Assembly (NCBI GenBank): GCA_947567075.1 | Contig: CANOLZ010000001.1 | Location: 25,410 to 89,409, forward strand | DNA length: 64,000 nt | Reading direction: 5' to 3' | DNA from: an uncultured bacterium | GTDB lineage: Bacteria > Bacillota > Clostridia > Lachnospirales > Lachnospiraceae | Shown: positions 23,038 through 36,892 of the stretch, one piece after another | Position numbering within the stretch: position 1 is the first letter of the stretch | Layout of the letters: every line of letters starts with the position of its first letter | Translations under genes and position numbers: made by a program | Notes under the pieces: generated by a model | What the model saw: only the letters and a program-made list of their open reading frames with translations | Databases searched by the model: none | What the model was told of the DNA's origin: nothing

Positions 23038-23075
23038 AGGCTGCCCCTGCCACTTGTGGCAGCTTGGCAGCTTTT
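23038..23075 (+). terminator. Hairpin / partial terminator after the transporter genes
   Basis: CTGCCAC-TT-GTGGCAG is nested in GCTGCC...GGCAGC and followed by TTTT. It could attenuate read-through into the BMC operon. Confidence 0.4.
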
Positions 23076-23107
23076 ACAAAGAATAACGAGCAGAAGGAGA
23101 AGGAAAG

Positions 23108-23872
23108 ATGGTTTCAGAATATGAAATAAAAAAACAGATATGTGAGATTGGAAAACGCATATACAATAAAGGAATGGTAGCGGCTAATGATGGCAATATA
23201 TCTGTAAAAATAGGGGAAAATGAATATCTTTGCACACCTACGGGGGTAAGCAAAGGGTTTATGACGCCGGAATATATTTGTAAGGTTGATAAAAAGGGAA
23301 ATGTACTTCAGGCAAATGGAACATTTAAGCCATCGTCAGAGATCAAAATGCATATGAGGGTCTATGAAGAAAGAGAGGATGTAAAAAGTGTTGTCCATGC
23401 CCATCCAATGTATGCTACTGGTTTTGCTATTGCGGGAATTCCATTGGATCAGCCTATTATGCCAGAGGCTGTCATAGGTCTGGGAGAAGTCCCTATTGTT
23501 CCTTACGGAACTCCTTCCACCATGGAAATTCCAGACGCTGTTTCACCCTTTTTACAAAATTATGATGCTGTTTTGTTGGAAAACCATGGGGCCTTAACCT
23601 ATGGGGATTCTTTGCTTGGAGCCTATCATAAGATGGAAGCTGTTGAGTTTTACGCTCAGCTTTTATTTATTGCAAGACAGGCAGGAGGGCCAAAGGAGCT
23701 GCCAGAAGAAGAAGTAAGGAAGCTGTGTAATATGAGGGCTAATTACGGGCTGACTGGAAGACATCCAGGAGAAGCTATTGTCAAACACAAAAAGTACGGG
23801 AAGGAAGAGTCTGGCAAGTCAATGGTTTTAGAGATTACAAAGAGAATTATGGAAGAGATGCATTTGAAATAG
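23108..23872 (+). CDS. Class II aldolase (L-fuculose/rhamnulose-1-phosphate aldolase family), copy 1, with C-terminal extension
   Basis: Zn ligand motifs HAHP and ENHG plus the NDGNIS phosphate loop. It is ~40 aa longer than the ~215-aa core and ends in the amphipathic SMVLEITKRIMEEMHLK. Confidence 0.85.
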   Translation: MVSEYEIKKQICEIGKRIYNKGMVAANDGNISVKIGENEYLCTPTGVSKGFMTPEYICKVDKKGNVLQANGTFKPSSEIKMHMRVYEEREDVKSVVHAHPMYATGFAIAGIPLDQPIMPEAVIGLGEVPIVPYGTPSTMEIPDAVSPFLQNYDAVLLENHGALTYGDSLLGAYHKMEAVEFYAQLLFIARQAGGPKELPEEEVRKLCNMRANYGLTGRHPGEAIVKHKKYGKEESGKSMVLEITKRIMEEMHLK

Positions 23873-23882
23873 GAGGGAATGT

Positions 23883-26408
23883 ATGAAACCTGAAAAGTAT
23901 GAAATTCTTAAAAGCCCAAGAATTGACAGGCTTGTAGGAAGACTCTTCGAAAAAATGCCAGAAATTGAGGGGGATCGGGCAGTACTGATTACAGAATCTT
24001 ATAAGGAGACAGAGGGAGAGCCAGTCATTGACAGAAGGGGAAAGGCCTTTGCCCATATTTTAAAAAATATACCCATTACTATACGAGAGGAAGAACTGAT
24101 TGTTGGCAGCGCAACAATGTCTCCAAGGGGGTGTCAAGTTTTCCCGGAGTTTTCTTATTCCTGGCTGGAGGAAGAGCTGGATACAGTGACTTCTAGGGCG
24201 GCAGATCCTTTTTATATTTCAGAAGATACAAAAGAGACATTAAGGGAAGTTTACCGTTATTGGAAAGGAAAGACAACAAGTGAACTGGCTGCTTCCTACA
24301 TGATGCCAGAGACGAGAAAAGCAATAGAACATAATATATTCACCCCAGGAAATTATTTCTATAATGGAGTAGGACATGTGACTGTAAATTATGGAAAAAT
24401 ATTAGAAATAGGGTATGAAGGGTTATTAGAAGAAGTACAGGCAGAACGGAAAAAATGTAAGGTAGGGGATGTAAATTATGTAGAAAAAACCCATTTTTTA
24501 AATGCAGTGGCAAAAAGTTTGGAAGCAGTTATGGAATATGGAAAAAGATATGCCCTCCTTGCAAGGGAAGTGGCAGAAACATGCTCCAATGAACAAAGAA
24601 AGGAAGAACTTTTACAAATTGCAAAAAATTGTGAGAGAGTACCGGCAAAAGGTGCAACATCCTTTTATGAAGCCTGTCAGTCTTTTTGGTTTATTCAAAT
24701 GCTTTTGCAAATAGAGTCCAGTGGTCACTCTATTTCTCCAGGGCGATTTGACCAATACATGTATCCTTACTATAAAAAAGATATAGAATCAGGGAGAATC
24801 ACAAAAGAATTTGCCCAAGAATTAATGGACTGCATTTGGGTGAAGCTAAATGATCTTAACAAAGTAAGGGATGCAGCATCGGCAGAAGGATTTGCTGGAT
24901 ATGGGCTGTTTCAGAACTTAATTGCCTCTGGACAAAATAAAGAAGGAGAAGATGCTACGAATGAACTTTCTTATATGTGTATTGAGGCTTCCATGCATGT
25001 TATGCTTCCTCAGCCTTCCCTTTCTGTACGGGTATGGAATAAAACACCCCATGAGTTTATGATGAAGGCTGTAAGCCTTACAAGAACAGGAATCGGACTG
25101 CCAGCTTACTATAATGACGAAGTTATTATCCCTTCTCTTTTGAATAGAGGTCTCACATTAGAGGATGCCAGAGATTACAATATTATCGGCTGTGTGGAGC
25201 CTCAAAAGTCAGGAAAGACAGATGGATGGCATGATGCAGCATTTTTTAACATGTGCAGACCTCTAGAGCTAGTATTTTCTAATGGATATGAGAAAGGTCA
25301 GAAAGTTGGAATAGAAACAGGGGATGTAACAAAAATGGAAACCTTTGATGAATTTTACGATGCTTACAAAGCCCAGATGAATTATTGTATAGATCTCCTT
25401 GTCAATGCAGATAACGCCATTGATGTAGCCCATAGAGAGCGATGTCCCCTCCCTTATCTTTCTTCCATGATTGAAGATTGTATAAAAAGAGGAAAAAGCG
25501 TACAGGAAGGGGGAGCTGTTTACAATTTCACTGGCCCCCAAGGATTTGGCATTGCCAATATGGCGGATTCATTATACGCCATTAAAACTTTAGTATTTGA
25601 TGAGAAAAAAGTAACCATGGCAGAGTATAAACAGGCGTTAGAAGATAACTATGGAAGAGGGCTTTGTAAGGAAAGGGTAGAAGAAATAACAAAGGAAGTA
25701 GTTGAAAAATTATTAAGCCAGGGAAAGAAAGTAAGGGAAAAAGAAATTGTTCAGATTGCCACGATGGCAGCTTCCCATGGTACATCAAAGGAAGAAAGGG
25801 AGAAATACGACGCCTTATTAAAGCTTATTGAAGGAGTTCCTAAATTTGGAAACGATATAGAAGAGGTAGACGCCTTTGCAAGAGATGTTGCTTACACTTA
25901 TACAAGACCATTGGAGATTTATCAAAATCCAAGAGGAGGCTGGTATCAGGCAGGACTTTATCCAGTATCCGCCAATGTACCTTTAGGAGCCCAGACAGGA
26001 GCCACCCCAGATGGAAGACTTGCAGGAGCCCCAGTAGCAGATGGAGTTTCCCCTTCAGCAGGAAAAGACGTATCCGGCCCAACGGCAGCTGCTAATTCTG
26101 TGGCAAAACTAGATCATGGAATTGCTTCCAATGGAACACTTTTCAACCAGAAGTTCCATCCATCAGCTCTTAGTGGAAGAGAAGGATTGGAAAATTTCAC
26201 AGCCTTTATTAGGGGATACTTTGACCAGAAAGGAAGTCATATCCAGTTTAATGTGGTAAGCAGGGAAACTCTCCTGGAAGCTCAAAAACATCCAGAACAA
26301 TATAAAACGTTAGTTGTCAGGGTGGCAGGTTACAGTGCATTGTTTACTTCCCTCTCTGCCTCATTGCAGGATGATATTATTAATGGGACAGAACAGGCGG
26401 GATTGTAG
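23883..26408 (+). CDS. Glycyl radical enzyme, B12-independent diol (1,2-propanediol) dehydratase type
   Basis: 841 aa. The glycyl-radical motif VRVAGYSALF has its Gly codon at 26328-26330. The thiyl loop IGCVEPQ has Cys codon 25191-25193 and a single Cys with Glu at +2, as in GRE eliminases and dehydratases. The fucose/BMC context supports the call. Confidence 0.88.
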   Translation: MKPEKYEILKSPRIDRLVGRLFEKMPEIEGDRAVLITESYKETEGEPVIDRRGKAFAHILKNIPITIREEELIVGSATMSPRGCQVFPEFSYSWLEEELDTVTSRAADPFYISEDTKETLREVYRYWKGKTTSELAASYMMPETRKAIEHNIFTPGNYFYNGVGHVTVNYGKILEIGYEGLLEEVQAERKKCKVGDVNYVEKTHFLNAVAKSLEAVMEYGKRYALLAREVAETCSNEQRKEELLQIAKNCERVPAKGATSFYEACQSFWFIQMLLQIESSGHSISPGRFDQYMYPYYKKDIESGRITKEFAQELMDCIWVKLNDLNKVRDAASAEGFAGYGLFQNLIASGQNKEGEDATNELSYMCIEASMHVMLPQPSLSVRVWNKTPHEFMMKAVSLTRTGIGLPAYYNDEVIIPSLLNRGLTLEDARDYNIIGCVEPQKSGKTDGWHDAAFFNMCRPLELVFSNGYEKGQKVGIETGDVTKMETFDEFYDAYKAQMNYCIDLLVNADNAIDVAHRERCPLPYLSSMIEDCIKRGKSVQEGGAVYNFTGPQGFGIANMADSLYAIKTLVFDEKKVTMAEYKQALEDNYGRGLCKERVEEITKEVVEKLLSQGKKVREKEIVQIATMAASHGTSKEEREKYDALLKLIEGVPKFGNDIEEVDAFARDVAYTYTRPLEIYQNPRGGWYQAGLYPVSANVPLGAQTGATPDGRLAGAPVADGVSPSAGKDVSGPTAAANSVAKLDHGIASNGTLFNQKFHPSALSGREGLENFTAFIRGYFDQKGSHIQFNVVSRETLLEAQKHPEQYKTLVVRVAGYSALFTSLSASLQDDIINGTEQAGL

Positions 26409-26426
26409 GGACAGGAAGGACAGCTT

Positions 26427-27218
26427 ATGGAAATAGATTATTTGGACGTAAAAGGCAGAATCTTTGATATTCAAAAGTTTTCCATCCATGACGGGCCAGG
26501 CATTCGTTCCATAGTATTTTTAAAAGGGTGTATGTTCCGCTGCCCTTGGTGCTGTAACCCTGAGTCCCAGGAATTTGCCATCCAAACAATGATAAGAGAC
26601 AATCAAGGGAAGGTAATAGGAGAAGATGTGACAGTAAGGCAGGTGTTAAGCCAGGTGAAACAGGATCGGGCTTATTACCGCAGAAGCAATGGAGGAATGA
26701 CCCTCTCAGGAGGGGAATGTATGTGTCAGCCAGACTTTGCCTATGCCCTTTTGAAGGAGGCTAGGGAAATTGGATTGAAAACAGCTGTGGAGACGACAGG
26801 GGCAGTAAAATATGAGATTGTGGAACGGCTATTGCCAGAAATCAATGATGTATTATTGGACATTAAACATATGAATCCAATAAAACATAAGGAATTTATA
26901 GGAAAAGATAATGGCCTTGTGCTGGACAATGCAAGGAAGATTGCAAAAAGTAAAGTAAGACTTACAATAAGAGTGCCTGTTGTTCCAACATTTAACGATA
27001 AGCCAGAGGAGATAAGGGATATTGTACAGTTTGTGAAAACCCTTCCAGGAATAGAAAAAATACATCTCCTTCCTTACCATAGACTGGGGAGGGATAAATA
27101 TAGAGCCCTTGGCAGAGACTATCTCCTTGATCATATTGAGCCTTTATCTAATAAGAAAATAAAGGAGCTTCTGGATATTGTAATAGATAGCGGCATAAAA
27201 GGGCAGATTGGAGGGTAA
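26427..27218 (+). CDS. Glycyl-radical enzyme activating enzyme (radical SAM)
   Basis: CMFRCPWCCNPES contains the CxxxCxxC cluster motif, and the N-terminus has GRIFDIQKFSIHDGPGIRS. It lies immediately downstream of the GRE. Confidence 0.9.
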   Translation: MEIDYLDVKGRIFDIQKFSIHDGPGIRSIVFLKGCMFRCPWCCNPESQEFAIQTMIRDNQGKVIGEDVTVRQVLSQVKQDRAYYRRSNGGMTLSGGECMCQPDFAYALLKEAREIGLKTAVETTGAVKYEIVERLLPEINDVLLDIKHMNPIKHKEFIGKDNGLVLDNARKIAKSKVRLTIRVPVVPTFNDKPEEIRDIVQFVKTLPGIEKIHLLPYHRLGRDKYRALGRDYLLDHIEPLSNKKIKELLDIVIDSGIKGQIGG

Positions 27219-27222
27219 AAGA

Positions 27223-27594
27223 GTGGATAAAACCTTCTCTTTGGAAGATAGAATGAGAATTATTCAGGAAATTGTGCCTGGGAGACAGATAACCCTCGCC
27301 CATGTTATTGCAAATCCAGACAATGTTTTATTGGAAAGGCTCAACTTGTCAAAAGGAAAGGAAAAGGTCAAGGGAGCTATTGGAATTGTAACTATGAGTC
27401 CTGGAGAGACGTCGATTATTGGAGCAGATATAGCTTTAAAAGCATCAGGTGTTGAAATTGGATTTATTGATAGGTTAAATGGAACTCTTCTTGTGACAGG
27501 CAGTGTGTCTCAGGTGGAAGAGGCTATGAAGGAATTAGTGGATTACTGTAAAAACACATTGGAATTTACTGTATGTGCAATAACAAGGACTTAA
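27223..27594 (+). CDS. Circularly permuted BMC-H shell protein (PduU/EutS type)
   Basis: RIIQEIVPGRQITLAHVIANP...GAIGIVTMSPGETSIIGADIALKASGVEIGFIDR is the PduU/EutS signature. Start is GTG 27223, 7 nt after GGAGGG (the ORF-track TTG is at 27208). Confidence 0.8.
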   Translation: MDKTFSLEDRMRIIQEIVPGRQITLAHVIANPDNVLLERLNLSKGKEKVKGAIGIVTMSPGETSIIGADIALKASGVEIGFIDRLNGTLLVTGSVSQVEEAMKELVDYCKNTLEFTVCAITRT

Positions 27595-27625
27595 AAAGCT
27601 GCAGGGCAGGAGAATGGAGGAAAAA

Positions 27626-28429
27626 ATGCAAAGGGAGTATGAAATAAAAAAACAAATATGTGATATAGGCAGGAGAATTTATAACAGAGGAATGGTAGCA
27701 GCCAATGATGGCAACATTTCTGTAAAAATCAGCGAGCATGAATTTTTATGCACACCTACTGGGGTAAGCAAAGGATTTATGACTCCAGAATATATTTGCA
27801 AAGTAGATAAAGAGGGAAGAGTCATTCAAGCCAATAAAGGATTTAAGCCATCCTCAGAAATAAAGATGCATATGAGAGTTTACAAAGAGAGACCAGATGT
27901 AAAAAGTGTTGTCCATGCCCACCCTATGTATGCCACAGGATATGCTATTGCAGGAAAGGCACTGACCCAGCCTATTATGCCAGAGGCAGTCATTTCATTA
28001 GGATGCGTTCCTGTTGCAAAATATGGAACTCCTTCGACAGAGGAGATTCCAGATGCAGTGTCTGAATATTTAGAATATTTTGATGCAGTATTGCTAGAAA
28101 ACCATGGAGCGCTTACCTATTCCGATTCCCTGCTTTCTGCTTATATGAAAATGGAAACGGTAGAGTTTTATGCCCATCTTCTCTATATTGCAGAACATTT
28201 GGGAGGGCCAAAGGAGTTATCAGAGGAGCAGGTGCAAAGACTATATGAAATCAGGAGACAGATGGGTATGTCAGGAAAACATCCAGCGAATTTGTGTCCC
28301 AATACAAGAGAGGGAAAGAAGAGCTGCCACAATTGCAAAGGAGGGCATTCTCCAAAGGAGGAGGGGATATCAGAGCAACTTGTTTCCCAAATTACACAAA
28401 AGGTATTGGAGCAGCTAAATCTTTCTTGA
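27626..28429 (+). CDS. Class II aldolase, copy 2, with Cys/His linker and C-terminal amphipathic helix
   Basis: Paralogue of 23108-23872, starting with the same EYEIKKQIC-IG-RIYN-GMVAANDGNISVKI. It carries HAHP and ENHG motifs. The tail reads CPNTREGKKSCHNCKGGH...ISEQLVSQITQKVLEQLNLS. ATG 27626 lies 5 nt after GGAGG. Confidence 0.85.
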   Translation: MQREYEIKKQICDIGRRIYNRGMVAANDGNISVKISEHEFLCTPTGVSKGFMTPEYICKVDKEGRVIQANKGFKPSSEIKMHMRVYKERPDVKSVVHAHPMYATGYAIAGKALTQPIMPEAVISLGCVPVAKYGTPSTEEIPDAVSEYLEYFDAVLLENHGALTYSDSLLSAYMKMETVEFYAHLLYIAEHLGGPKELSEEQVQRLYEIRRQMGMSGKHPANLCPNTREGKKSCHNCKGGHSPKEEGISEQLVSQITQKVLEQLNLS

Positions 28430-28558
28430 TAGGTGGAGCATCCAAAGGGAAAGTTTAGGACACAAGGGGATAGGCATGAATCTCCAATGGATTGGGAGTG
28501 AGAAACAAGATAGTCTATTAGAAGAATATGAAAGAAAGGTTTTTGAGGAGGTTATAGT

Positions 28559-29941
28559 GTGGAAGTAAGGGAAGAAGAAATAAAAGCAATGGTAAGAGAA
28601 GTAATGGCCCGAATGGAACGTTTTCCTCAAAAAGAACAAGAGGGTATATTCAAAAATATGGATGATGCCATTGCAGCAGCAAAAAAAGCCCAAAAAGTTA
28701 TGCAGAAAATGCCCATGGATTTTCGTGAAAAAATCATAAGTAATATTCGTAAAAAAACAAGGGGGCAGGGAGAACTGCTGGCAAAAATGGGTGTTGAGGA
28801 GACAGGAATGGGGAATGTGGGGGACAAAACATTAAAACATTTGCTTTTAGCAGATAAGACTCCAGGAACAGAAGCCATAACAACCCAGGCATGGTCTGGA
28901 GACAGAGGTTTGACCTTAACAGAGATGGGCCCTTTTGGCGTAATTGGAGCGATTACACCATGTACAAATCCTAGTGAGACTGTTTTATGTAACAGCATTG
29001 GCATGATTGCAGGAGGGAATACAGTTGTGTTTAGTCCCCATCCCCAGGCCGTTAAAGTATCCAATTACGCAGTACAGCTTGTAAATCAAGCTTCCATAGA
29101 AGCAGGAGGGCCAGAAAATATTGCTGTATCCTTACATAATCCTACCTTGGAAACAAGCAGTTATATGATGAAACATAGAGATATTTCCCTCATGGTAGCA
29201 ACGGGAGGTCCTAGTGTTGTAACTGCCGTATTATCTTCAGGAAAAAGAGGGATTGGAGCAGGCGCAGGAAATCCTCCGGTTCTTGTAGATGAGACGGCAG
29301 ACATAAAAAAAGGGGCCGCAGATATTATAAATGGATGTACCTTTGACAATAACCTTCCATGCATTGCTGAGAAGGAGGTCGTTGCCCTAGAGAAGATAGC
29401 CGATGAGCTTATCTATTATATGAAAGAAAAGGGGGGATATTTCCTTTCTAAAGAAGAGTTGGAGAGGCTGAGCGCCTTAGTGATGACAAAAAAGGTGCTG
29501 AACCGCTCATGTGTGGGGAGGGATGCAAAAACACTGTTGTCCATGATTGGAGTCAAGGCTCCTGAGGACACAAGATGTATTATTTTTGAGGGGCCTAAGG
29601 AACATCCCTTAATTGCAGAGGAACTGATGATGCCCATTTTGGGAATTGTCAGGGCAAAAGACATTGAAGACGCCATTTGTCAGGCAGTGTGGCTGGAACA
29701 TGGAAATCGTCATTCAGCCCATATGCATTCTAGAGATGTAGAAAATCTCACTCGTTTTGGAAAGGCCATGGACACAGCGATTTTTGTGAAAAATGCCCCG
29801 TCCTATGCAGCCTTAGGCTATGGAGGGGAAGGTTTTTGCACTTTTACCATAGCCAGCAGGACAGGAGAGGGACTTACTTGTGCAAGTACTTTTACAAAAA
29901 GCAGAAGATGCGTTTTGGCAGATAGTTTATGCATTCGATAG
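28559..29941 (+). CDS. pduP: CoA-acylating aldehyde dehydrogenase (PduP/EutE family) with N-terminal encapsulation-peptide-like helix
   Basis: GTG start after GAGGAGG. The N-terminal helix is EEEIKAMVREVMARME, followed by a linker. The ALDH core has catalytic NNLPCIAEKE. ~460 aa, as for PduP. Confidence 0.88.
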   Translation: MEVREEEIKAMVREVMARMERFPQKEQEGIFKNMDDAIAAAKKAQKVMQKMPMDFREKIISNIRKKTRGQGELLAKMGVEETGMGNVGDKTLKHLLLADKTPGTEAITTQAWSGDRGLTLTEMGPFGVIGAITPCTNPSETVLCNSIGMIAGGNTVVFSPHPQAVKVSNYAVQLVNQASIEAGGPENIAVSLHNPTLETSSYMMKHRDISLMVATGGPSVVTAVLSSGKRGIGAGAGNPPVLVDETADIKKGAADIINGCTFDNNLPCIAEKEVVALEKIADELIYYMKEKGGYFLSKEELERLSALVMTKKVLNRSCVGRDAKTLLSMIGVKAPEDTRCIIFEGPKEHPLIAEELMMPILGIVRAKDIEDAICQAVWLEHGNRHSAHMHSRDVENLTRFGKAMDTAIFVKNAPSYAALGYGGEGFCTFTIASRTGEGLTCASTFTKSRRCVLADSLCIR

Positions 29942-29962: not shown

Positions 29963-31165
29963 GTGGAGATGAAGGAAACAGAAATTGAGAAAGTAGTAAG
30001 GCAAGTGCTCCAAAGTATGATGTCAGATCAAGAACAAGAAAGAAATCAAAGGGATTTCAATATTCCAAAAATAAGCAGGGTTGCTATGCTTACGGGAGTG
30101 GAGCATTATGAGATACAGGAGTATCCCATTCCACAATTAGGAGAAGAGGATATTTTAGTAAAGGTAGAAGGCTGCGGCATTTGTGGGACAGATGCCCATG
30201 AATTCAAAGGAGATCCCTTTGGACTAATTCCTGTTGTGCTGGGACATGAAGGAACGGGAGAAATTGTAAAGATGGGGAGGAGGGTAAAAGCAGATAGCGC
30301 TGGTAAACCACTACATGTGGGAGATAAAGTAGTATCCTGTATGATCTTTAAAGATAATCCAGACATTACTATGTTTGACTTAAATAAACAAAATGTTGGG
30401 GGAGCAGATGTCTATGGACTTTTGCCAGACGATTCTATCCATCTTAATGGATGGTTTGCAGATTATATTGTTTTGCGCAAAGGTTCAACTGTTTTTAATG
30501 TCAGTGACTTAGATTTGTATTCCAGAATTTTAATTGAACCTTGTGCAGTGCTTGTCCATGCAGTAGAGAGAGGAAAGACAACGGGCATTTTAAAGTTTAA
30601 TTCAAGAGTTGTTGTGCAAGGGTGCGGGCCTATTGGCTTAATTTGTATAGCTGTTTTAAGGACAATGGGAATAGAACATATTGTAGCGGTAGATGGGGAG
30701 CAAAAGCGCCTTGATTTTGCAAAAGAGATGGGGGCTGAGAGAGCTGTAAACTTTAAAGACTTCCATGGCACAGAGGAATTGTCAGAGGGATTGAAAGCGG
30801 CTTTTGATGGAAAGCTTGCTGATTTTGGGTTCCAATGCACAGGCTCTCCCATAGCCCATGGCAATATATATAAATTTATTCGCAATGGAGGAGGACTATG
30901 CGAGCTGGGATTTTTCATTAACGGTGGAGATGCCAAAATCAATCCCCATTTTGACATATGTGCAAAAGAGATTACCATAGTGGGATCCTGGGTGTATACC
31001 CTTCGGGATTATGCAACAACCTTTGACTTTTTAAAAAGGGCAAAGGGAATAGGCCTTCCTCTAGAGAAGCTTATTACCCATACCTTTCCTTTAGAAAGGA
31101 TAAATGAAGGTCATAGAACGAATTTAGCAATGGAAGGGTTAAAAATTGCAATAGTAAATATGTAA
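29963..31165 (+). CDS. Zinc-dependent (MDR) alcohol dehydrogenase with N-terminal targeting-like helix
   Basis: Motifs CGICGTDAHEF and GHEGTGEIV, plus Rossmann VQGCGPIGL. It has a ~35-aa N-terminal extension, ETEIEKVVRQVLQSMM. ATG 29969 is an alternative start. Confidence 0.85.
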   Translation: MEMKETEIEKVVRQVLQSMMSDQEQERNQRDFNIPKISRVAMLTGVEHYEIQEYPIPQLGEEDILVKVEGCGICGTDAHEFKGDPFGLIPVVLGHEGTGEIVKMGRRVKADSAGKPLHVGDKVVSCMIFKDNPDITMFDLNKQNVGGADVYGLLPDDSIHLNGWFADYIVLRKGSTVFNVSDLDLYSRILIEPCAVLVHAVERGKTTGILKFNSRVVVQGCGPIGLICIAVLRTMGIEHIVAVDGEQKRLDFAKEMGAERAVNFKDFHGTEELSEGLKAAFDGKLADFGFQCTGSPIAHGNIYKFIRNGGGLCELGFFINGGDAKINPHFDICAKEITIVGSWVYTLRDYATTFDFLKRAKGIGLPLEKLITHTFPLERINEGHRTNLAMEGLKIAIVNM

Positions 31166-31183: not shown

Positions 31184-31498
31184 ATGACAAATGCAGTAGG
31201 ATTGATAGAAGTATTTGGGCTGACTGCCGCCTTCATGGCAGCAGATGCAGGATGCAAAGCTGCCAATGTAACCCTTGAGAATTTTGATAAAAATAAACCT
31301 GCCAATGCAGATGCCCTTCCTGTTCCCCTTATTGTTATGGTGAAATTTAGAGGAAGGGTGGAAGATGTAAGGGCTGCCGTTCTTGCAGCAGAGGAAGCGG
31401 CAAATTGTGTAACAGGGGTTGTCTCGACACATGTCATAGCAAGGCCCCAAAAAGAGATTGAAGGGATGCTGAAATTAAGCGCCTTTGATAAAAATTAA
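31184..31498 (+). CDS. BMC-H shell protein, divergent (insertion at the pore loop)
   Basis: BMC-domain start [26 protein letters not shown]. The canonical K-I-G-S-G pore loop is replaced by [18 protein letters not shown]. Strong AGGAGG RBS. Confidence 0.8.
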
Positions 31499-31520
31499 GA
31501 ATAAATGGGAGGTAACAAAA

Positions 31521-31799
31521 ATGGCTCAGGAAGCGTTAGGTATGATTGAAACAAGAGGTTTGGTAGCGGCGATTGAAGCGGCGGACGCAATGACAAAGGC
31601 GGCGGAAGTTACTCTGGTAGGGACAGAGAAAATAGGCTCAGGACTTGTATCTGTCATGGTAAGAGGAGATGTAGGAGCAGTAAAAGCAGCGACAGAAGTA
31701 GGCGCAGAGGCAGCCTCTAAGTTAGGAGAATTGGTGGCAGTACATGTGATTCCAAGACCTCATGGGGATGTAGAGAAAATTCTCCCTTCACTAAAGTAG
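31521..31799 (+). CDS. BMC-H shell protein (PduA/EutM-like)
   Basis: [54 protein letters not shown] is canonical Pfam00936. ATG 31521 lies after GGGAGG. Confidence 0.9.
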
Positions 31800-31838
31800 G
31801 GGTGAACCTGGAAGCCTATCAGAAAGGCGTGAATATAA

Positions 31839-32120
31839 ATGATGAAAGCATTGGGATTTTTTGAAATACCAAGTGTGACTGCTGCTTTTGCCGCCCTGGA
31901 TGTTATGTGTAAAACAGCGGATGTTGCCTTAGTGACATGGGAACGTAAACTGGGAGGGCGGCTGGTTACTTTGATTATAGAGGGAGATGTGGCAGCTGTA
32001 TCAGCTGCCATTGAGGCGGCGGCTGCAAAAGGGATGAGGAAATGTGTCCATGGGGTCATTCCAAACCCCCATGAGGAAGTGAGAAGACTAATTGAACTTA
32101 GTGCCAGCCGTCTAAAATAG
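31839..32120 (+). CDS. BMC-H shell protein, divergent
   Basis: KALGFFEIPSVTAAFAALDVMCKTADVALVTWERKLGGRLVTLIIEGDVAAV has the BMC fold pattern but an altered pore loop (RKLGGR). Confidence 0.8.
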   Translation: MMKALGFFEIPSVTAAFAALDVMCKTADVALVTWERKLGGRLVTLIIEGDVAAVSAAIEAAAAKGMRKCVHGVIPNPHEEVRRLIELSASRLK

Positions 32121-32232
32121 TAAGGAATAATAGGTGGTGGATTGGTGAATGGCAGAGATAAAGAAAAAACCAATAGATAAGAAAGAAAATGAAAATCTGG
32201 AAATAGAGGAAAAGGCAGTCAAGGAGGTAAAA

Positions 32233-32511
32233 ATGGTACAGCAAGCATTAGGCATCATTGAAACAAGAGGATTAGTAGCAGCCATTGAAGGGGCAGATAC
32301 AATGCTTAAAGCAGCAAATGTGGATTTGGTAGGAACGGAAAAAATAGGTTCAGGGCTTGTATCTGTTATGGTAAGAGGAGATGTGGGAGCTGTAAAGTCG
32401 GCAGTGGAATCAGGAGCAAATGCAGCTTCTAAGTTAGGAGAATTGGTAGCGACCCATGTCATTCCAAGACCTCACAATGACGTAGAAAAGATTCTTCCTG
32501 TATTAAAATAA
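32233..32511 (+). CDS. BMC-H shell protein (PduA/EutM-like), paralogue of 31521-31799
   Basis: [57 protein letters not shown] 32233 lies 5 nt after AAGGAGG, so the upstream in-frame extension from 32149 is less likely. Confidence 0.88.
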
Positions 32512-32529
32512 GAGAAAGCAGGTGGAAAA

Positions 32530-33192
32530 GTGGAAGAGCAGACAAAGGAATACATTGCCAGGCTGGTGACAGAAGTTTTATGTAAGAAAGACTACGAAAC
32601 AAAGGGTTACATGGTTCCTATTGGAATATCCGCAAGACATGTCCACTTAACACAAGAGCATGTTGAAATTTTATTTGGGAAGGGATACAAGCTCACAAGG
32701 AAAAAAGACTTAATGGGTGGTCAGTTTGCAGCAAACGAGGAGGTGACCATAGTTGGAACGAAACTTCGGGCTATTGAAAATGTCCGGGTTCTAGGACCAG
32801 TAAGAACAAAGTCCCAGGTAGAAATTTCAAAGACAGATTCTTATAAATTAGGAATTGGGGTTCCAGTAAGGGAATCAGGAGATGTGGCGGGATCTGCTCC
32901 CATAGCCTTGGTAGGTCCAAAAGGGACTGTTTACTTGCAGGAAGGCTGCATTATAGCAAGGCGTCATGTCCATATGTCTCCCGGGGACGCAAAAGCTTCT
33001 GGACAAAAAGACAGAAATATTGTTTCTGTCAAAGTAGAAAATGAGAGGGGAACCATATTCAATCATGTACAGGTCCGAGTGGACGAAAGATTTACGCTGG
33101 AAATGCATATTGATGCAGATGAAGCCAATGGGGCAGGAATACAGTCAGGGGATATGGGATATTTGCTGACAGAGGAAAGAATTGAAGCCTGA
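32530..33192 (+). CDS. pduL: Phosphate propanoyltransferase with N-terminal targeting-like helix
   Basis: Duplicated PduL motifs GISARHVHL and ARRHVHMSPGDA. The N-terminal helix is TKEYIARLVTEVLCK. GTG start. Confidence 0.88.
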   Translation: MEEQTKEYIARLVTEVLCKKDYETKGYMVPIGISARHVHLTQEHVEILFGKGYKLTRKKDLMGGQFAANEEVTIVGTKLRAIENVRVLGPVRTKSQVEISKTDSYKLGIGVPVRESGDVAGSAPIALVGPKGTVYLQEGCIIARRHVHMSPGDAKASGQKDRNIVSVKVENERGTIFNHVQVRVDERFTLEMHIDADEANGAGIQSGDMGYLLTEERIEA

Positions 33193-33221
33193 AACAGGTC
33201 TATGAGAAATGGGGGATTAAA

Positions 33222-33488
33222 ATGCTTGTAGGAAAGGTTGTAGACAGTGTAATAGCTACAAGAAAAAATGAGCATTTAGTAGGTTGTAAATTTTTAATTG
33301 TAGAACCCTTTCAAAAAATGGAAGGCGGAGGGGGAAGAATAGTAGCCGTTGATAATGTAGGGGCTGGAATCGGTGAGATTGTCCTTGTAGCAAAGGGCAG
33401 CGCTGCAAGAGTAGGATGGGGTATGGAGAAGGCGCCTATAGACGCAGCTGTTGTTGGAATTGTAGACAATGGCATGGAACTGGAGTAG
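33222..33488 (+). CDS. BMC-P pentameric vertex protein (EutN/PduN/CcmL family)
   Basis: MLVGKVVDSVIATRKNEHLVGCKFLIVEP...VDNVGAGIGEIVLVAKGSAAR, 88 aa. Confidence 0.88.
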   Translation: MLVGKVVDSVIATRKNEHLVGCKFLIVEPFQKMEGGGGRIVAVDNVGAGIGEIVLVAKGSAARVGWGMEKAPIDAAVVGIVDNGMELE

Positions 33489-33494
33489 AAACTT

Positions 33495-34847
33495 ATGGAA
33501 ATAGAGGAATTAAAAGAGATTATGCGAGAAGGGGGCATTGTGGGCGCTGGAGGCGCTGGTTTTCCCTCTTATGGAAAACTAGATAAAAGAATAGAAATAA
33601 TTGTATTAAATTGTGCGGAATGCGAACCACTTCTTCGAGTACATAGACAGCTTCTCGCAAAACATGCCTATGAAATTTTAGATGCTTTAGAAGTAATAGC
33701 AGAGGCAGTAGAGGCTAAAAAAGTAATGATTGCTGTAAAAGGAGCATATAGGAAAACAATAGAGGCTGTGGAACGGGCATTTACAGAAAAAAAACGCCTC
33801 TGTCCTATGAAAATAGGAAGGCTTCCAGAAATATATCCTGCGGGGGATGAGGTCATTACCATTTATGAGGTAACTGGAAAGGTAGTGCCTCCAGGGAAAC
33901 TTCCAATTGATATAGGTATTGGGGTATTCAATGTAGAGACAATTTATAATGTTTACAGAGCGATCTTTGAAAGGCAGCCAGTAACCCATAAATATTTAAC
34001 AATAGGTGGTGAGGTGAGAGAGCCGAAAACTGTAAAGGTGCCTATTGGAATGAAAATAGAAGAGGTAGTGGAATTGGCTGGAGGCTCCCTCGTAAAAGAA
34101 CCTGTCTATATTCATGGAGGACCTATGACTGGCCCTCTTGCATCTGGTGAGGAGGTCATTACAAAAACGTCCAATGCCCTTTTAGTATTTCACGAAAACC
34201 ATTTGGTTGTCCAAAATAAAAAGAGGAAAAACTCAGTAAGTATGAAACGGGCAATGGCTTCTTGCTGCCAATGCCGTATATGTACAGATTTATGTCCAAG
34301 AAATTTGCTGGGGCATCCCATTGAACCCCATGAATTTATGAAAGGAGCCACAAGCGGGGTTACAAGAAATATAGAACCTTTTCTCAACACTTATTATTGT
34401 TCCCAGTGTGGTATATGCGAAATGTATGCCTGCATGCAAAATTTAGCTCCCCAAAGCCTTATTGGCAGCTATAAAAATGGACTGAGGGAAAAGGGAGTAA
34501 AACCTATGAAGAACCCTTCCTTTAGGGATGTTCATCCTATGAGAAGGGAGAGAATGGTTCCTATGGGAAGGTTAATTGCCAAGCTGGGATTGACTTCTTA
34601 TGACACAGATGCTCCCCTTACAAAAGAGATCCCAAAGCCTTCTTTTTTAAAAATATCCTTAGGTCAGCATATTGGAGGGCTGGCAAAGCCAGAGGTAGCC
34701 AAAGGAGATAAAGTAAAAACTGGACAGAAAATCGCTGGCGCTATGGAAGATGCATTAAGTGTATCTTACCATGCCCCTATGGATGGAGAAGTGTGGGAAG
34801 TAACAGACCATATCATTATGATGAAAACAGAGATAGTTCATGGATAA
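33495..34847 (+). CDS. PduS/RnfC-like flavo-iron-sulfur oxidoreductase
   Basis: GIVGAGGAGFPSYGKL (NuoF/RnfC nucleotide-FMN site), an SLBB-like middle region, and two ferredoxin motifs CCQCRICTDLCP and CSQCGICEMYAC. Confidence 0.8.
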   Translation: MEIEELKEIMREGGIVGAGGAGFPSYGKLDKRIEIIVLNCAECEPLLRVHRQLLAKHAYEILDALEVIAEAVEAKKVMIAVKGAYRKTIEAVERAFTEKKRLCPMKIGRLPEIYPAGDEVITIYEVTGKVVPPGKLPIDIGIGVFNVETIYNVYRAIFERQPVTHKYLTIGGEVREPKTVKVPIGMKIEEVVELAGGSLVKEPVYIHGGPMTGPLASGEEVITKTSNALLVFHENHLVVQNKKRKNSVSMKRAMASCCQCRICTDLCPRNLLGHPIEPHEFMKGATSGVTRNIEPFLNTYYCSQCGICEMYACMQNLAPQSLIGSYKNGLREKGVKPMKNPSFRDVHPMRRERMVPMGRLIAKLGLTSYDTDAPLTKEIPKPSFLKISLGQHIGGLAKPEVAKGDKVKTGQKIAGAMEDALSVSYHAPMDGEVWEVTDHIIMMKTEIVHG

Positions 34848-34862
34848 GAAAGGGAGAGGCAG

Positions 34863-35411
34863 ATGGGAAAGGCATTGGGAATGGCAGAGTATGTTACTGT
34901 TTCAACAGGAATACAGGCAGCAGATATCATTTTAAAGACAGCAAACGTAGAAATCATAGAAGCCCAGACTGTATGTCCGGGAAAATATATTGTACTTTTT
35001 TCTGGGGAGTTAAGTGCAGTCAAGGCCTCTATGGAAGCAGCGAAAGATAGATGCAGTATGCATTTCGTTGATGGCTTTGTTTTAGGAAACCCCCATGCAT
35101 CTATTTTTCCAGCTATTTATGGGTCAACGCCCATAGAAGATGTAAAAGCTCTTGGAGTGCTGGAAACCTTTAGTGCAGCCACTATAATTGTTGCTGCTGA
35201 TGAGGCTGCAAAAACGTCCCAGGTAGAATTGGTGGAGTTAAGAATAGCAAGGGGAATGTGTGGAAAATCCTATCTCATGCTCACAGGGGAAGTGGCGGCA
35301 GTCAAAGCAGCGATAGAGAAGGCAAAAAAAGCAGCTGGTGAGAGGGGGATGCTTTTGGACAGCAGTATTATTGCAAATCCAGATCGCCAGTTATGGGACA
35401 GCATTTTGTAA
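34863..35411 (+). CDS. pduT: Tandem-domain BMC-T shell protein (PduT-like)
   Basis: Two BMC domains in 182 aa. VCPGKYIVLFSG carries the Cys that ligates the pore 4Fe-4S cluster in PduT. Confidence 0.85.
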   Translation: MGKALGMAEYVTVSTGIQAADIILKTANVEIIEAQTVCPGKYIVLFSGELSAVKASMEAAKDRCSMHFVDGFVLGNPHASIFPAIYGSTPIEDVKALGVLETFSAATIIVAADEAAKTSQVELVELRIARGMCGKSYLMLTGEVAAVKAAIEKAKKAAGERGMLLDSSIIANPDRQLWDSIL

Positions 35412-35425
35412 GAAAGGAGAAGGGC

Positions 35426-36892
35426 ATGGAAAAGAGAGTATTAGCATTTGACTTTGGAGCTTCTGGCGGAAGGGCAATGGCTGGTATTTACAACGGAGAG
35501 AAAATAATACTAGAAGAACTCCATCGGTTTTCCAATGAGCCAGTCACAGTTCGAGGAGTTATGTATTGGGACGTTCTAAGATTATTTTATGAAATGAAGC
35601 AAGGCATTTTAAAAGGGAAGCAAAAAGGGAGATTTCAAAGCATTGGCATTGACACATGGGGAGTGGATTTTGGACTATTAGATAAAGATGGAACCTTATT
35701 GGAAAACCCAGTGCATTACAGAGACAATCGCACAAAGGGCATGTTGGAAAAGAGTTTTGAGTACATAGACAAAGAGAAGTTTTATGAAATTACAGGAAAT
35801 CAATTTATGGAAATAAACACTGCCTTTCAACTCCTCTCCTTATCTCAAAATAGGCCAGAGTTTTTAGAAAGAGGGAAAACTTTGCTGCTCATGCCAGACT
35901 TATTTACATATATGTTAACAGGAGTGAAAAGTGCAGAATATTCTATTGCCTCCACGACCCAGCTCCTTGATGCTAGGAAAAGATCCTGGTCTTACTATGT
36001 TATAGAAAAGTTAGGTCTTCCAAAACATATTTTTCCTACGATTGTACAAAGTGGTACAAAGATTGGACCAATAAGTAAAGAAATATGCCAGGAGCTCATT
36101 ATAGATTCTGTAGATGTAATTTCTGTAGCTTCTCATGATACACAGAGCGCTCTTTTGGCAGTGACGGCAAAGGAAAAAGATTTTCTATTTATTAGCTGTG
36201 GCACATGGTCTTTGATTGGCACAGAATTAGAGGAACCAATTATTAATGAAAAGTCTCAAAAGTACAATATTACAAATGAGGGAGGATGTGATAAAAAGGC
36301 TGTTTTTCTAAAAAATATGATTGGACTTTGGCTCATACAAGAAAGCAGGAGACAGTGGATAAGAGAAGGAAAGGAATACGGATTTGGAGACTTGGAAAAA
36401 CTGGCAAAAGAGGCAAGAGGCTTCCTTTCCTTTGTGGATCCTGATGCGCCAGAGTTTGTTCCCCAGGGAGATATACCAGGAAAGATCCGAGAATTTTGCA
36501 AAAAAACAAATCAGCCTGTTCCTGAAACCATAGGTGAAATCGTAAGGTGCATTCATGAAAGCCTGGCATTGAAATATAGAATTGCTTTAGAGGAAATAGA
36601 GGAATGTACAGGGAAAAAATATGAGACAATTTATATGGTAGGAGGGGGAACCCAGAGTAAACTTCTCTGTCAGTGCACAGCCAATGCATGTAACAGAACC
36701 GTTGCGGCAGGTCCAGTGGAGGCTACAGTACTTGGAAATCTTGTGCTTCAGCTTGTGGCATCTGGGGACATTGGAGGTACAAAAGAGGCTAGGGAGTTGA
36801 TTGCCCAATCCCAAAAAATAAATATATATGAGCCAAATAGAGGAGGGGAGTGGGAGGAAGCTTACGGAAGATTTAAAAGTCTTTTTATGTAA
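35426..36892 (+). CDS. FGGY-family sugar kinase (rhamnulokinase/L-fuculokinase type)
   Basis: VLAFDFGASGGRAMAG...LHRFSNEPV...YWDVLRLF is the RhaB-like N-terminus, plus GIDTWGVDFGLLD and VGGGTQSKLL. Confidence 0.85.
   Translation: MEKRVLAFDFGASGGRAMAGIYNGEKIILEELHRFSNEPVTVRGVMYWDVLRLFYEMKQGILKGKQKGRFQSIGIDTWGVDFGLLDKDGTLLENPVHYRDNRTKGMLEKSFEYIDKEKFYEITGNQFMEINTAFQLLSLSQNRPEFLERGKTLLLMPDLFTYMLTGVKSAEYSIASTTQLLDARKRSWSYYVIEKLGLPKHIFPTIVQSGTKIGPISKEICQELIIDSVDVISVASHDTQSALLAVTAKEKDFLFISCGTWSLIGTELEEPIINEKSQKYNITNEGGCDKKAVFLKNMIGLWLIQESRRQWIREGKEYGFGDLEKLAKEARGFLSFVDPDAPEFVPQGDIPGKIREFCKKTNQPVPETIGEIVRCIHESLALKYRIALEEIEECTGKKYETIYMVGGGTQSKLLCQCTANACNRTVAAGPVEATVLGNLVLQLVASGDIGGTKEARELIAQSQKINIYEPNRGGEWEEAYGRFKSLFM

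What the first reader, a model, noticed from the sequence alone, without database searches (positions are those of the whole stretch)
23108..28429. Two paralogous class II aldolases in the GRM operon, both carrying C-terminal encapsulation-peptide-like helices
The aldolases at 23108-23872 and 27626-28429 bracket the GRE-activase-PduU module and share long identical stretches. Each extends 40-50 aa past the ~215-aa catalytic core.

Each extension is a flexible linker plus a terminal amphipathic helix: SMVLEITKRIMEEMHLK (nt 23819-23869) and ISEQLVSQITQKVLEQLNLS (nt 28367-28426). These have the hydrophobic periodicity of BMC encapsulation peptides.

This implies that deoxyhexulose-1-phosphate cleavage, and hence lactaldehyde release, happens inside the shell. 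Two cargo aldolases would be targeted, perhaps one for fuculose-1-P and one for rhamnulose-1-P. However, only a fucose isomerase and a single kinase are present in the locus.
Basis: partly seen in the sequence, partly recalled or inferred. Interest (0 to 1): 0.6.

Follow-up and report, generated by a model that had tools for sequence, protein, structure and literature searches.

The report
Two targeting-tagged aldolases in fucose microcompartment operon
A gut bacterium's fucose-degrading protein organelle operon encodes two copies of the sugar-phosphate-splitting enzyme. Both carry the short tail helix already known to send this enzyme into the organelle, so the tag is not new and only the rare, conserved second copy is.

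Summary
**Observation: confirmed.**
- ORFs 23108-23872 (AldA, 254 aa) and 27626-28429 (AldB, 267 aa) are intact PF00596 class II aldolases, 67% identical.
- They flank the glycyl-radical enzyme (GRE), its activase and a PduU-type shell gene, inside a complete GRM5-type microcompartment operon.
- Each has a catalytic core, a variable linker and a conserved terminal helix (..lvaEITkKVmEQLglK).

**Interpretation: partly supported.**
- The C-terminal encapsulation peptide (EP) on GRM5 and PVM (Planctomycetes/Verrucomicrobia-type) microcompartment aldolases is already published (Aussignargues 2015). Encapsulated fuculose-phosphate cleavage is also published (Ferlez 2019).
- New comparative support: close relatives in operons without shell genes lack the helix. 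This happened at least twice within the AldA clade.
- The fuculose-versus-rhamnulose split is not supported:
  - No clade-specific residue lies in the core apart from position 127.
  - Three of five two-aldolase genomes have no rhamnose isomerase.
  - The locus kinase is the FucI-linked type.
  - Tail-less AldA-type enzymes sit in both fucose and rhamnose operons.

**What is modestly new.**
- The two-aldolase layout is rare but conserved. It appears in the window's own genus, Clostridium neonatale, and a few Lachnospiraceae genomes and metagenome contigs.
- It stems from one old duplication.
- AldA differs from the canonical AldB mainly by losing a conserved Cys/His linker motif together with core Cys127.

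Interest is low to moderate.

The parts
23108..23872 (+). AldA: FucA-like class II aldolase, 254 aa. This is the extra upstream paralogue and the first gene of the BMC block, 10 nt before the GRE gene.
   Evidence: ORF and translation. PF00596 E 4e-49. Member of a supported clade of Cys-free, short-linker aldolases (99/90).
23768..23818 (+). AldA linker (residues 221-237): variable and without cysteine.
   Evidence: AF2 pLDDT below 50 at residues 229-234. Alignment of the tails.
23819..23869 (+). AldA terminal helix SMVLEITKRIMEEMHLK: encapsulation-peptide type.
   Evidence: AF2 helix at 235-250, pLDDT about 85. Conserved motif across AldA-type proteins. Absent from relatives outside BMC loci.
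23038..23077 (+). GC-rich hairpin plus UUUU between the transporter binding-protein gene and aldA. It is terminator-like and may mark the boundary of a transcription unit.
   Evidence: MFE -22.2 kcal/mol, z -2.46. Sequence. Not flagged by the consensus scan.
23883..26408 (+). Glycyl radical enzyme (1,2-propanediol-dehydratase type of GRM5).
   Evidence: PF02901 and PF01228. TIGR01774 above its cut-off.
26427..27218 (+). GRE-activating radical SAM enzyme.
   Evidence: PF04055 and PF13353.
27208..27594 (+). PduU-like BMC shell protein.
   Evidence: PF00936.
27626..28429 (+). AldB: canonical GRM5 aldolase, 267 aa, in the position found in nearly all related loci (after PduU, before AldDH or ADH).
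   Evidence: Same position in about 70 of 80 related loci. RBS GGAGG 5 nt before the ATG at 27626.
28004..28006 (+). Codon for Cys127 of AldB. This core cysteine is conserved in 97% of B-type and replaced (mostly by Glu) in A-type enzymes.
28295..28348 (+). Cys/His motif in the AldB linker (C224-x9-C234-H235-x-C237, plus H241). It is deleted in AldA.
   Evidence: C224 in 64 of 64, and C234, H235 and C237 each in 63 of 64 B-type sequences. AF2 gives no confident fold for it.
28367..28426 (+). AldB terminal helix ISEQLVSQITQKVLEQLNLS: encapsulation-peptide type.
   Evidence: AF2 helix at 250-263. I256, V260 and L264 nearly invariant. Low entropy compared with the linker.
28559..29941 (+). Acylating aldehyde dehydrogenase with an N-terminal EP-like helix (EEEIKAMVREVMARM).
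   Evidence: PF00171 domain starts at residue 32. NF011927 above its cut-off. N-terminus.
29963..31165 (+). Zn-MDR alcohol dehydrogenase (lactaldehyde/propanal reductase candidate) with an N-terminal extension of about 59 aa bearing an EP-like helix (ETEIEKVVRQVLQSMM).
   Evidence: PF08240 starts at residue 60. Hydrophobic moment 0.68.
31184..35411 (+). Shell and core block: four BMC-H genes, PduL (with an N-terminal EP-like helix), a BMC-P (EutN) gene, PduS and PduT.
   Evidence: Pfam scan. All BMC-domain genes of the genome lie in this locus.
35393..36892 (+). FGGY kinase, read as the lineage's L-fuculokinase.
   Evidence: 68% identical to the FucI-linked kinase of L086 and 42% to the RhaA-linked kinase of L094. 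The NCBIfam rhamnulokinase model scores below its cut-off.
12358..14151 (+). L-fucose isomerase.
   Evidence: NF008220 scores 1060 bits, above its cut-off.

Best explanation
**What it is.** Both genes encode FucA-type, Zn-dependent L-fuculose-1-phosphate aldolases that are cargo of the GRM5 (fucose/rhamnose, glycyl-radical) microcompartment.

**How it works.**
- Each protein is a catalytic core of about 220 aa, then a poorly conserved linker, then a conserved amphipathic helix of about 15 aa at the extreme C-terminus.
- That helix is the encapsulation peptide already described for class II aldolases of GRM5 and PVM organelles.
- Together with the N-terminal EP-like helices on AldDH, ADH and PduL, it recruits the aldolase into the enzyme core and shell.
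- Fuculose-1-P is therefore cleaved inside the shell. Lactaldehyde is reduced there to 1,2-propanediol, and dihydroxyacetone phosphate (DHAP) leaves.

**The two copies.**
- AldB is the canonical copy.
- AldA comes from one old duplication inside a minor GRM5 sub-lineage. It kept the EP but lost the Cys/His linker motif and the matching core Cys127.
- The two copies most likely act on the same substrate. They differ in a linker-borne property (metal binding or redox sensitivity, still unknown), in dosage, or in both.

**Shown.** Gene anatomy, conservation, phylogeny, and the correlation of the tail with BMC context.

**Inferred.** Actual encapsulation, the substrate, and the reason for keeping two copies.
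For: **Locus and catalytic residues.**
- The locus has the full GRM5 gene set.
- His97, His99, His160 and Glu78 are invariant in 83 sequences. I read these from memory as the equivalents of the FucA Zn ligands and catalytic Glu.
- The closest solved structures are fuculose-phosphate aldolases whose alignments end near residue 207-209. The tail is therefore an add-on.

**Tail architecture.**
- Conserved core, variable linker and conserved terminus by entropy: 0.42, 2.87 and 1.02 bits.
- AF2 predicts a terminal helix after a low-confidence linker in both proteins.

**Tail tracks the BMC.**
- Tail-bearing A-type proteins sit in the same AldA-GRE-AE-PduU-(PduV)-AldB layout in seven further places: complete in L004 and L090-L093, and cut off by the contig end in L005 and L006.
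- Tail-less relatives lie in aldolase-DeoR-FGGY operons with FucI or RhaA and no shell genes nearby.
- The genome holding L007 has no PF00936 gene.
- A lone EP-bearing aldolase (L052) is the only PF00596 gene of a genome whose BMC locus lies on another contig.

**Phylogeny.**
- The AldA clade is supported (99/90) and its sister is a Cys-motif, EP-bearing sequence.
- The window's AldB groups (100/95) with the AldBs of the other two-aldolase loci.
- Tail-less forms are nested inside the AldA clade. AU tests reject one tail-less clade (p 0.002) and one tail-bearing clade (p 0.0007).

**Literature.** PMC4594438, PMC6325248, PMC8217296 and PMC3557285.
Against: - No experiment shows encapsulation of either protein, and none could be run here.
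- The hydrophobic moment of the tails is not significantly above composition shuffles.
- Both proteins score below the curated cut-offs of every NCBIfam FucA equivalog (best 124 and 120 bits against a cut-off of 264). The substrate therefore rests on context and on Petit 2013.
- The tree root (AraD of the window's own genome) sits on a very long branch, so the direction 'AldA derived from a B-like ancestor' is only moderately supported (97/78).
- The AU groups were named after the tree had been seen.
- The AF2 models are monomers. They cannot show whether the tail packs on a neighbouring subunit.
Confidence: 0.72

Rival explanations
1. Substrate split: AldA and AldB are specialised, one for L-fuculose-1-P and the other for L-rhamnulose-1-P or another deoxyketose-1-P.
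For: - Two conserved paralogues kept over long divergence suggest non-redundant roles.
- Two of the two-aldolase MAGs (G002, G003) do encode RhaA.
- The clade-specific positions 199, 202 and 221 lie just before the C-terminal tail. From memory, that tail contributes to aldehyde binding in E. coli FucA.
Against: - No clade-specific substitution lies in residues 1-198 apart from C127E.
- RhaA was not found in the window's genome, in same-genus G136 (98% complete), or in C. neonatale.
- The only kinase in the locus is the FucI-linked type.
- Tail-less AldA-type enzymes serve next to FucI (L086) and next to RhaA (L094).
- One aldolase is assigned to both sugars in C. phytofermentans (PMC3557285).
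Confidence: 0.12
2. The extensions are oligomerisation elements or active-site lids of the aldolase itself and have nothing to do with microcompartments.
For: - From memory, the C-terminal tail of E. coli FucA folds over the neighbouring active site.
- The Cys/His part of the AldB linker is retained in one EP-less aldolase outside a BMC locus (P0068/L088). At least that part is therefore not a targeting element.
Against: - The terminal helix is missing from every close relative examined outside a BMC locus (7 contexts, and L007).
- It is missing from all solved FucA structures.
- It is present in the satellite aldolase of a BMC-encoding genome.
- It shares its pattern with the N-terminal helices of three other cargo enzymes of the same locus.
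Confidence: 0.06
3. AldA is a redundant duplicate with no distinct role. It adds dosage only, or is drifting toward loss.
For: - The cores are nearly identical in conserved positions.
- The layout is rare: 1 of 200 genera sampled in the family.
- Most GRM5 loci manage with one aldolase.
Against: - AldA is intact in all eight loci seen, with 76-94% protein identity, while third-codon positions between the A and B copies are saturated.
- The loss of four Cys/His ligands together with Cys127 is a specific, clade-wide change, not random decay.
Confidence: 0.2

Closest known systems
C-terminal encapsulation peptide of BMC-associated class II aldolases (GRM5, PVM, PVM-like, ACI; Aussignargues et al. 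2015, PMC4594438; Sutter et al. 2021, PMC8217296)
   Same: - Terminal helix of about 12-17 aa behind a poorly conserved linker of 23-81 aa.
- Present on BMC-associated aldolases and absent from non-BMC ones.
- The high Cys content of the linker was already tabulated there (5.5%).
   Different: - Here two such aldolases sit in one operon.
- The AldA linker (about 14-17 aa) is shorter than the published range and has no cysteine.
- The published text calls the linker unconserved, but the B-type linker carries a nearly invariant C-x(6-10)-C-H-x-C motif.
GRM5 loci of Clostridium phytofermentans (Cphy_1174-1186) and Roseburia inulinivorans (Petit 2013, PMC3557285; Axen 2014, PMC4207490; Ferlez 2019, PMC6325248)
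   Same: - Same gene order from the GRE to PduT: GRE, activase, PduU, aldolase, AldDH, MDR-ADH, BMC-H genes, PduL, EutN, PduS, PduT.
- Same proposed chemistry.
   Different: - Those loci are described with one aldolase.
- This locus has a second one upstream of the GRE.
- It is fused to a fucose ABC transporter and two-component sensor block.
- It has an AraC-type regulator in place of a DeoR-type one.
- It lacks the PduV and DUF336 genes seen in related two-aldolase loci.
Cytosolic L-fuculose-1-phosphate aldolase FucA (E. coli 1FUA, S. pneumoniae 4C24, 6BTD)
   Same: - Same fold family (PF00596).
- Same conserved HxH...H and Glu residues.
- Alignment spans residues 6-209.
   Different: - About 30% identity only.
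- The solved enzymes end at about 205-222 aa, with no linker and no terminal helix.

Membership tests
Class II aldolase / FucA-like (PF00596) | Pfam Aldolase_II domain above the gathering score | tested here: met
   167.4 and 169.8 bits against a cut-off of 22.2.
Class II aldolase / FucA-like (PF00596) | Zn-ligand histidines and catalytic glutamate conserved (equivalents of E. coli FucA His92, His94, His155 and Glu73; the mapping is from memory) | tested here: met
   E78, H97, H99 and H160 are invariant in 83 aligned sequences that include both window proteins. The PSSE and HxH blocks align to solved FucAs.
Curated L-fuculose-phosphate aldolase equivalogs (NCBIfam NF005302, TIGR01086 and others) | Score above the curated equivalog cut-off | tested here: not met
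   Best FucA model scores 124 and 120 bits against a cut-off of 264. TIGR01086 scores 84 and 82 against 400. The substrate is inferred from operon context (FucI, FucK-type kinase) and from PMC3557285.
BMC encapsulation peptide (as defined by Kinney 2012 and Aussignargues 2015) | Short helix at a protein terminus, separated from the domain by a poorly conserved linker | tested here: met
   Entropy profile of core, linker and terminus. AF2 helices at 235-250 and 250-263 after low-pLDDT linkers.
BMC encapsulation peptide (as defined by Kinney 2012 and Aussignargues 2015) | Amphipathic pattern of hydrophobic residues on one helix face | tested here: inconclusive
   I256, V260 and L264 are nearly invariant at i, i+4, i+8. 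The hydrophobic moment (0.53-0.54) is not significantly above shuffles (fractions 0.24 and 0.07). The same holds for the AldDH and PduL helices.
BMC encapsulation peptide (as defined by Kinney 2012 and Aussignargues 2015) | Extension present on BMC-associated homologues and absent from non-BMC homologues | tested here: met
   Seven tail-less relatives lie in operons without shell genes. One tail-less genome has no PF00936 gene. Tail-bearing proteins lie in BMC loci or in a BMC-encoding genome.
BMC encapsulation peptide (as defined by Kinney 2012 and Aussignargues 2015) | Necessary and sufficient for cargo association with shells | not testable with these tools
   Needs fusion and deletion experiments.
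GRM5 microcompartment locus | GRE plus activase, class II aldolase, MDR-type ADH, AldDH, PduL, BMC-H, BMC-P and PduS/PduT in one locus | tested here: met
   Pfam and NCBIfam scans. Synteny with about 70 related loci. The C. neonatale counterpart is catalogued as GRM5 in PMC8217296 supplementary data.

The most novel reading that the evidence does not exclude
The canonical GRM5 aldolase (AldB type) carries a so far undescribed metal-binding or redox-switch site. It would be built from core Cys127 and the linker residues C224, C234, H235 and C237. This site would gate aldolase activity, or exposure of the encapsulation peptide, inside the redox-active organelle. AldA would be a switch-free isoform kept by a minority of GRM5 loci so that cleavage continues when the switch is off, for example under metal limitation or oxidative stress.
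Probability: 0.2. Interest if true: 0.6.

Novelty: new variant of a known kind. Interest (0 to 1): 0.3.

Why it matters
**The headline claim adds no new principle.** EP-tagged aldolase, and therefore lactaldehyde made inside the shell, is already textbook for GRM5 and PVM organelles.

**What the analysis adds.**
- A natural loss series: aldolases that left the organelle context repeatedly lost exactly the terminal helix. This is comparative evidence for EP function that needs no experiment.
- A conserved but rare GRM5 sub-type with two EP-tagged isoforms. They differ in a Cys/His linker motif and one core cysteine. This gives a clean isoform pair for testing what that motif does.
- A correction for annotation: the locus kinase is a fuculokinase, although its best curated model is rhamnulokinase.

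GRM5 organelles drive propionate and propanol formation from mucin- and plant-derived fucose in gut Clostridia, so understanding cargo control has some relevance to physiology.

Tried and rejected
- **Hydrophobic moment and helical wheel as a stand-alone test.** The tails are not significantly better than shuffles, and neither are other EP-like helices in the locus. I relied on conservation and context instead.
- **Recent gene conversion between the two copies.** Rejected: 76% nt identity and a longest exact match of 26 nt.
- **A third aldolase as a rhamnulose-specific partner.** The only other PF00596 gene in the genome is AraD-like, next to ribulose-phosphate 3-epimerase and transketolase genes, and has no tail.
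- **Rhamnose pathway in the genome.** No RhaA was found.
- **L052 looked like a counter-example** (an EP-bearing aldolase with no shell genes within 10 kb upstream or 5 kb downstream). It was resolved as a satellite gene of a BMC-encoding genome.
- **NCBIfam equivalogs.** They give no functional assignment.
- **Zarzycki et al. 2015 (AEM),** the primary GRM bioinformatics paper, could not be read. A search for 'two aldolases' with 'microcompartment' found nothing.
- **Sutter 2021 supplement.** It lists two GRM aldolase HMMs (aldol_1_grm and aldol_3_grm5). I could not determine whether they correspond to the B and A types.
- **Promoter and terminator consensus scan.** Nothing was significant.
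- **AF2 and the Cys/His linker.** It gave no confident fold for that segment.

Full report
**1. What is in the window**

The ORF listing and translation confirm two intact ORFs on the + strand. AldA is 23108-23872 (254 aa). AldB is 27626-28429 (267 aa; an alternative ATG at 27614 gives 271 aa). Both are class II aldolases (PF00596, E about 1e-49) and are 67% identical.

Pfam and NCBIfam scans give the following gene order:
- AraC regulator on the minus strand
- L-fucose isomerase (12358-14151)
- response regulator, histidine kinase and binding-protein sensor
- sugar ABC transporter
- AldA
- glycyl radical enzyme (GRE)
- activase
- PduU-type shell protein
- AldB
- acylating aldehyde dehydrogenase (AldDH)
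- Zn-MDR alcohol dehydrogenase (ADH)
- four BMC-H genes
- PduL
- BMC-P (EutN)
- PduS
- PduT
- FGGY kinase

This is a GRM5-type fucose/rhamnose microcompartment operon. All seven BMC-domain matches of the genome lie in it.

**2. The tails**

Both proteins continue past the invariant G-x-G-[KR]-H-P end of the core, AldA by 34 aa and AldB by 47 aa.

Conservation:
- Across 120 database relatives the extreme C-terminus is a conserved motif..lvaEITkKVmEQLglK, in both paralogue types.
- In an 83-sequence alignment, I256, V260 and L264 (i, i+4, i+8) are at least 90% conserved.
- Column entropy is 0.42 bits in the core, 2.87 in the variable linker and 1.02 in the last 13 helix positions.

Structure:
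- AlphaFold2 predicts a terminal helix after a low-confidence linker in both proteins. For AldA the helix is 235-250 with pLDDT about 85. For AldB it is 250-263 with pLDDT about 60.
- Solved FucA structures (6BTD, 4C24, 1FUA) align only up to residue 207-209 and have no such tail.

Other cargo in the locus: AldDH, ADH and PduL begin with helices of the same pattern.

The tails score 0.53-0.54, with shuffle fractions of 0.24 and 0.07. That is no better than the other EP-like helices.

**3. Does the tail go with the organelle?**

Tail-bearing proteins:
- Nearly all of the 80 related genome loci carry one aldolase of the B type inside a GRM5 gene set.
- Tail-bearing A-type proteins were looked up on four long metagenome contigs. 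All four show the same layout: AldA-GRE-AE-PduU-(PduV)-AldB-AldDH-ADH-shell.
- The same layout occurs in Clostridium neonatale (L004). Two Lachnospiraceae MAG loci (L005, L006) begin the same way but are cut off by the contig end.

Tail-less proteins:
- Relatives of 226-259 aa that are 69-85% identical stop within or just after the linker.
- They sit in aldolase-DeoR-FGGY operons with FucI or RhaA and no shell gene within 8 kb (L084-L089, L094, L095, L007).
- The genome holding L007 has no BMC-domain gene at all.

An apparent exception:
- L052 is an EP-bearing aldolase among unrelated genes.
- It turned out to be the only PF00596 gene of a genome whose BMC locus lies on another contig, so it is a satellite cargo gene.

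Phylogeny:
- On a maximum-likelihood tree of the cores, tail-less forms are nested within tail-bearing clades.
- In a 35-row re-analysis, AU tests reject a single tail-less clade (p 0.002) and a single tail-bearing clade (p 0.0007) within the AldA group. The tail state changes at least four times.
- These groups were named after the tree had been seen.
- The tails are clearly homologous, so these changes are losses.

The extension is therefore not a general oligomerisation element of non-BMC aldolases.

**4. Already known**

- Aussignargues et al. [quoted passage not shown] They reported a C-terminal EP of about 17 aa on 21 of the BMC-associated ones (PVM, PVM-like, GRM5), behind a linker of 23-81 residues.
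- Ferlez et al. 2019 (PMC6325248) describe GRM5 as encapsulating fuculose-phosphate aldolase, lactaldehyde reductase and the GRE.
- Sutter et al. 2021 (PMC8217296) restate the aldolase EP for ACI and list 216 GRM5 loci, including C. neonatale.

**5. Why two aldolases?**

Origin of the duplication:
- The A type forms a supported clade (99/90). Its sister is a Cys-motif, EP-bearing sequence (97/78).
- The window's AldB groups (100/95) with the AldBs of the other two-aldolase loci.
- This points to one old duplication inherited together. Nucleotide identity is 76% and third-position identity 54%.
- The root lies on a very long outgroup branch, so the direction is only moderately secure.

Rarity of the layout:
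- One genome was sampled from each of 200 genera of the family. Sixty-six have a homologue, but only the window's own genus (G000 and G136) has the two-copy arrangement.
- Its presence in a Clostridiaceae isolate suggests transfer of the whole locus.

Evidence against a fuculose/rhamnulose split:
- Positions that separate the A and B types at the 80% level all lie at or beyond residue 199. At a relaxed threshold the only core difference is residue 127, which is Cys in 97% of B-type and mostly Glu in A-type enzymes.
- RhaA was not found in the window's genome (79% complete), in G136 (98% complete) or in C. neonatale. It is present in two other two-aldolase MAGs.
- The locus kinase is 68% identical to a FucI-linked kinase and 42% identical to a RhaA-linked one. 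Its best NCBIfam model is nevertheless rhamnulokinase, below the cut-off.
- Tail-less AldA-type enzymes occur next to FucI in L086 and next to RhaA in L094.
- Petit et al. 2013 assign both sugars to the single aldolase Cphy_1177.

**6. What does differ**

- The B-type linker carries C224 (64 of 64 sequences) and C234, H235 and C237 (63 of 64 each).
- The motif co-occurs with core Cys127 in 144 of 202 distinct sequences by a strict spacing rule. About 14 more have Cys127 and a variant spacing of the motif.
- The A clade lacks all of these.
- One EP-less aldolase outside a BMC locus (P0068/L088) keeps the Cys/His motif. The motif is therefore not itself the targeting signal.
- AF2 gives no confident fold for it.
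Here I add its family-wide conservation and the link to Cys127.
- The co-variation is essentially one evolutionary event, so it is suggestive only.

**7. Transcription**

- A GC-rich hairpin (-22.2 kcal/mol, z -2.46) followed by UUUU lies between the transporter's binding-protein gene and aldA.
- aldA is followed by the GRE gene after 10 nt.
- aldA is thus probably the first gene of the BMC transcription unit, possibly also reached by read-through. No promoter could be called.

**8. Verdict**

Targeting is supported and already known. The substrate split is not supported.
- The residual novelty is a rare, conserved two-isoform GRM5 sub-type and a natural series of EP losses.
- Interest is low to moderate (0.3).
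- The most novel reading that remains open is a metal or redox switch in the canonical aldolase, which the second isoform would bypass.

Noticed in passing
window 28004-28006 and 28295-28348: The Cys/His motif of the AldB linker (C224, C234, H235, C237) is nearly invariant in B-type GRM5 aldolases and co-occurs with core Cys127. All of these are absent from the AldA clade. One EP-less aldolase outside a BMC locus (P0068/L088) keeps the motif. This may be a metal or redox site.
   Followed up: partly
L084-L089, L094, L095, L007: Cytosolic-type fucose or rhamnose operons (aldolase-DeoR-FGGY-FucI or RhaA) in some Clostridia use aldolases nested phylogenetically inside BMC-aldolase clades. These aldolases are truncated at the linker. 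They look like enzymes that left the organelle and lost the tag at least four times.
   Followed up: partly
L052 9953-10804: A tail-bearing aldolase sits alone among helicase, PP-loop, hydrogenase and hrcA-grpE-dnaK genes. The genome's BMC locus is on another contig, and this is its only PF00596 gene. It is a satellite cargo gene.
   Followed up: yes
window 35393-36892: The FGGY kinase scores best against the rhamnulokinase model (468 bits, below the cut-off of 528). It is 68% identical to kinases adjacent to FucI and 42% identical to one adjacent to RhaA. Automatic annotation would probably misname it.
   Followed up: yes
window 23038-23077: A terminator-like GC-rich hairpin plus UUUU lies between the ABC-transporter binding-protein gene and aldA. 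The consensus scan did not flag it, because the stem as I first read it leaves a loop shorter than the scan's minimum.
   Followed up: partly
L090-L093 compared with window 27594-28559: Related two-aldolase loci carry a PduV/EutP GTPase gene between PduU and AldB. Two of them also carry an HbpS-like (DUF336) gene after AldB. The window's locus lacks both.
   Followed up: no
L091 and L092 upstream regions; L084: Some two-aldolase loci are preceded by GatZ-like, class II FBP/tagatose-bisphosphate aldolase, aldo-keto reductase and MDR-ADH genes plus FucU. The same upstream block precedes the tail-less aldolase of L084. This suggests insertion or deletion of the whole BMC module at one site.
   Followed up: no
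G059:C27:26313-26999: An aldolase homologue in another genus of the family has an in-frame TGA. It may be a pseudogene or a sequencing error.
   Followed up: no
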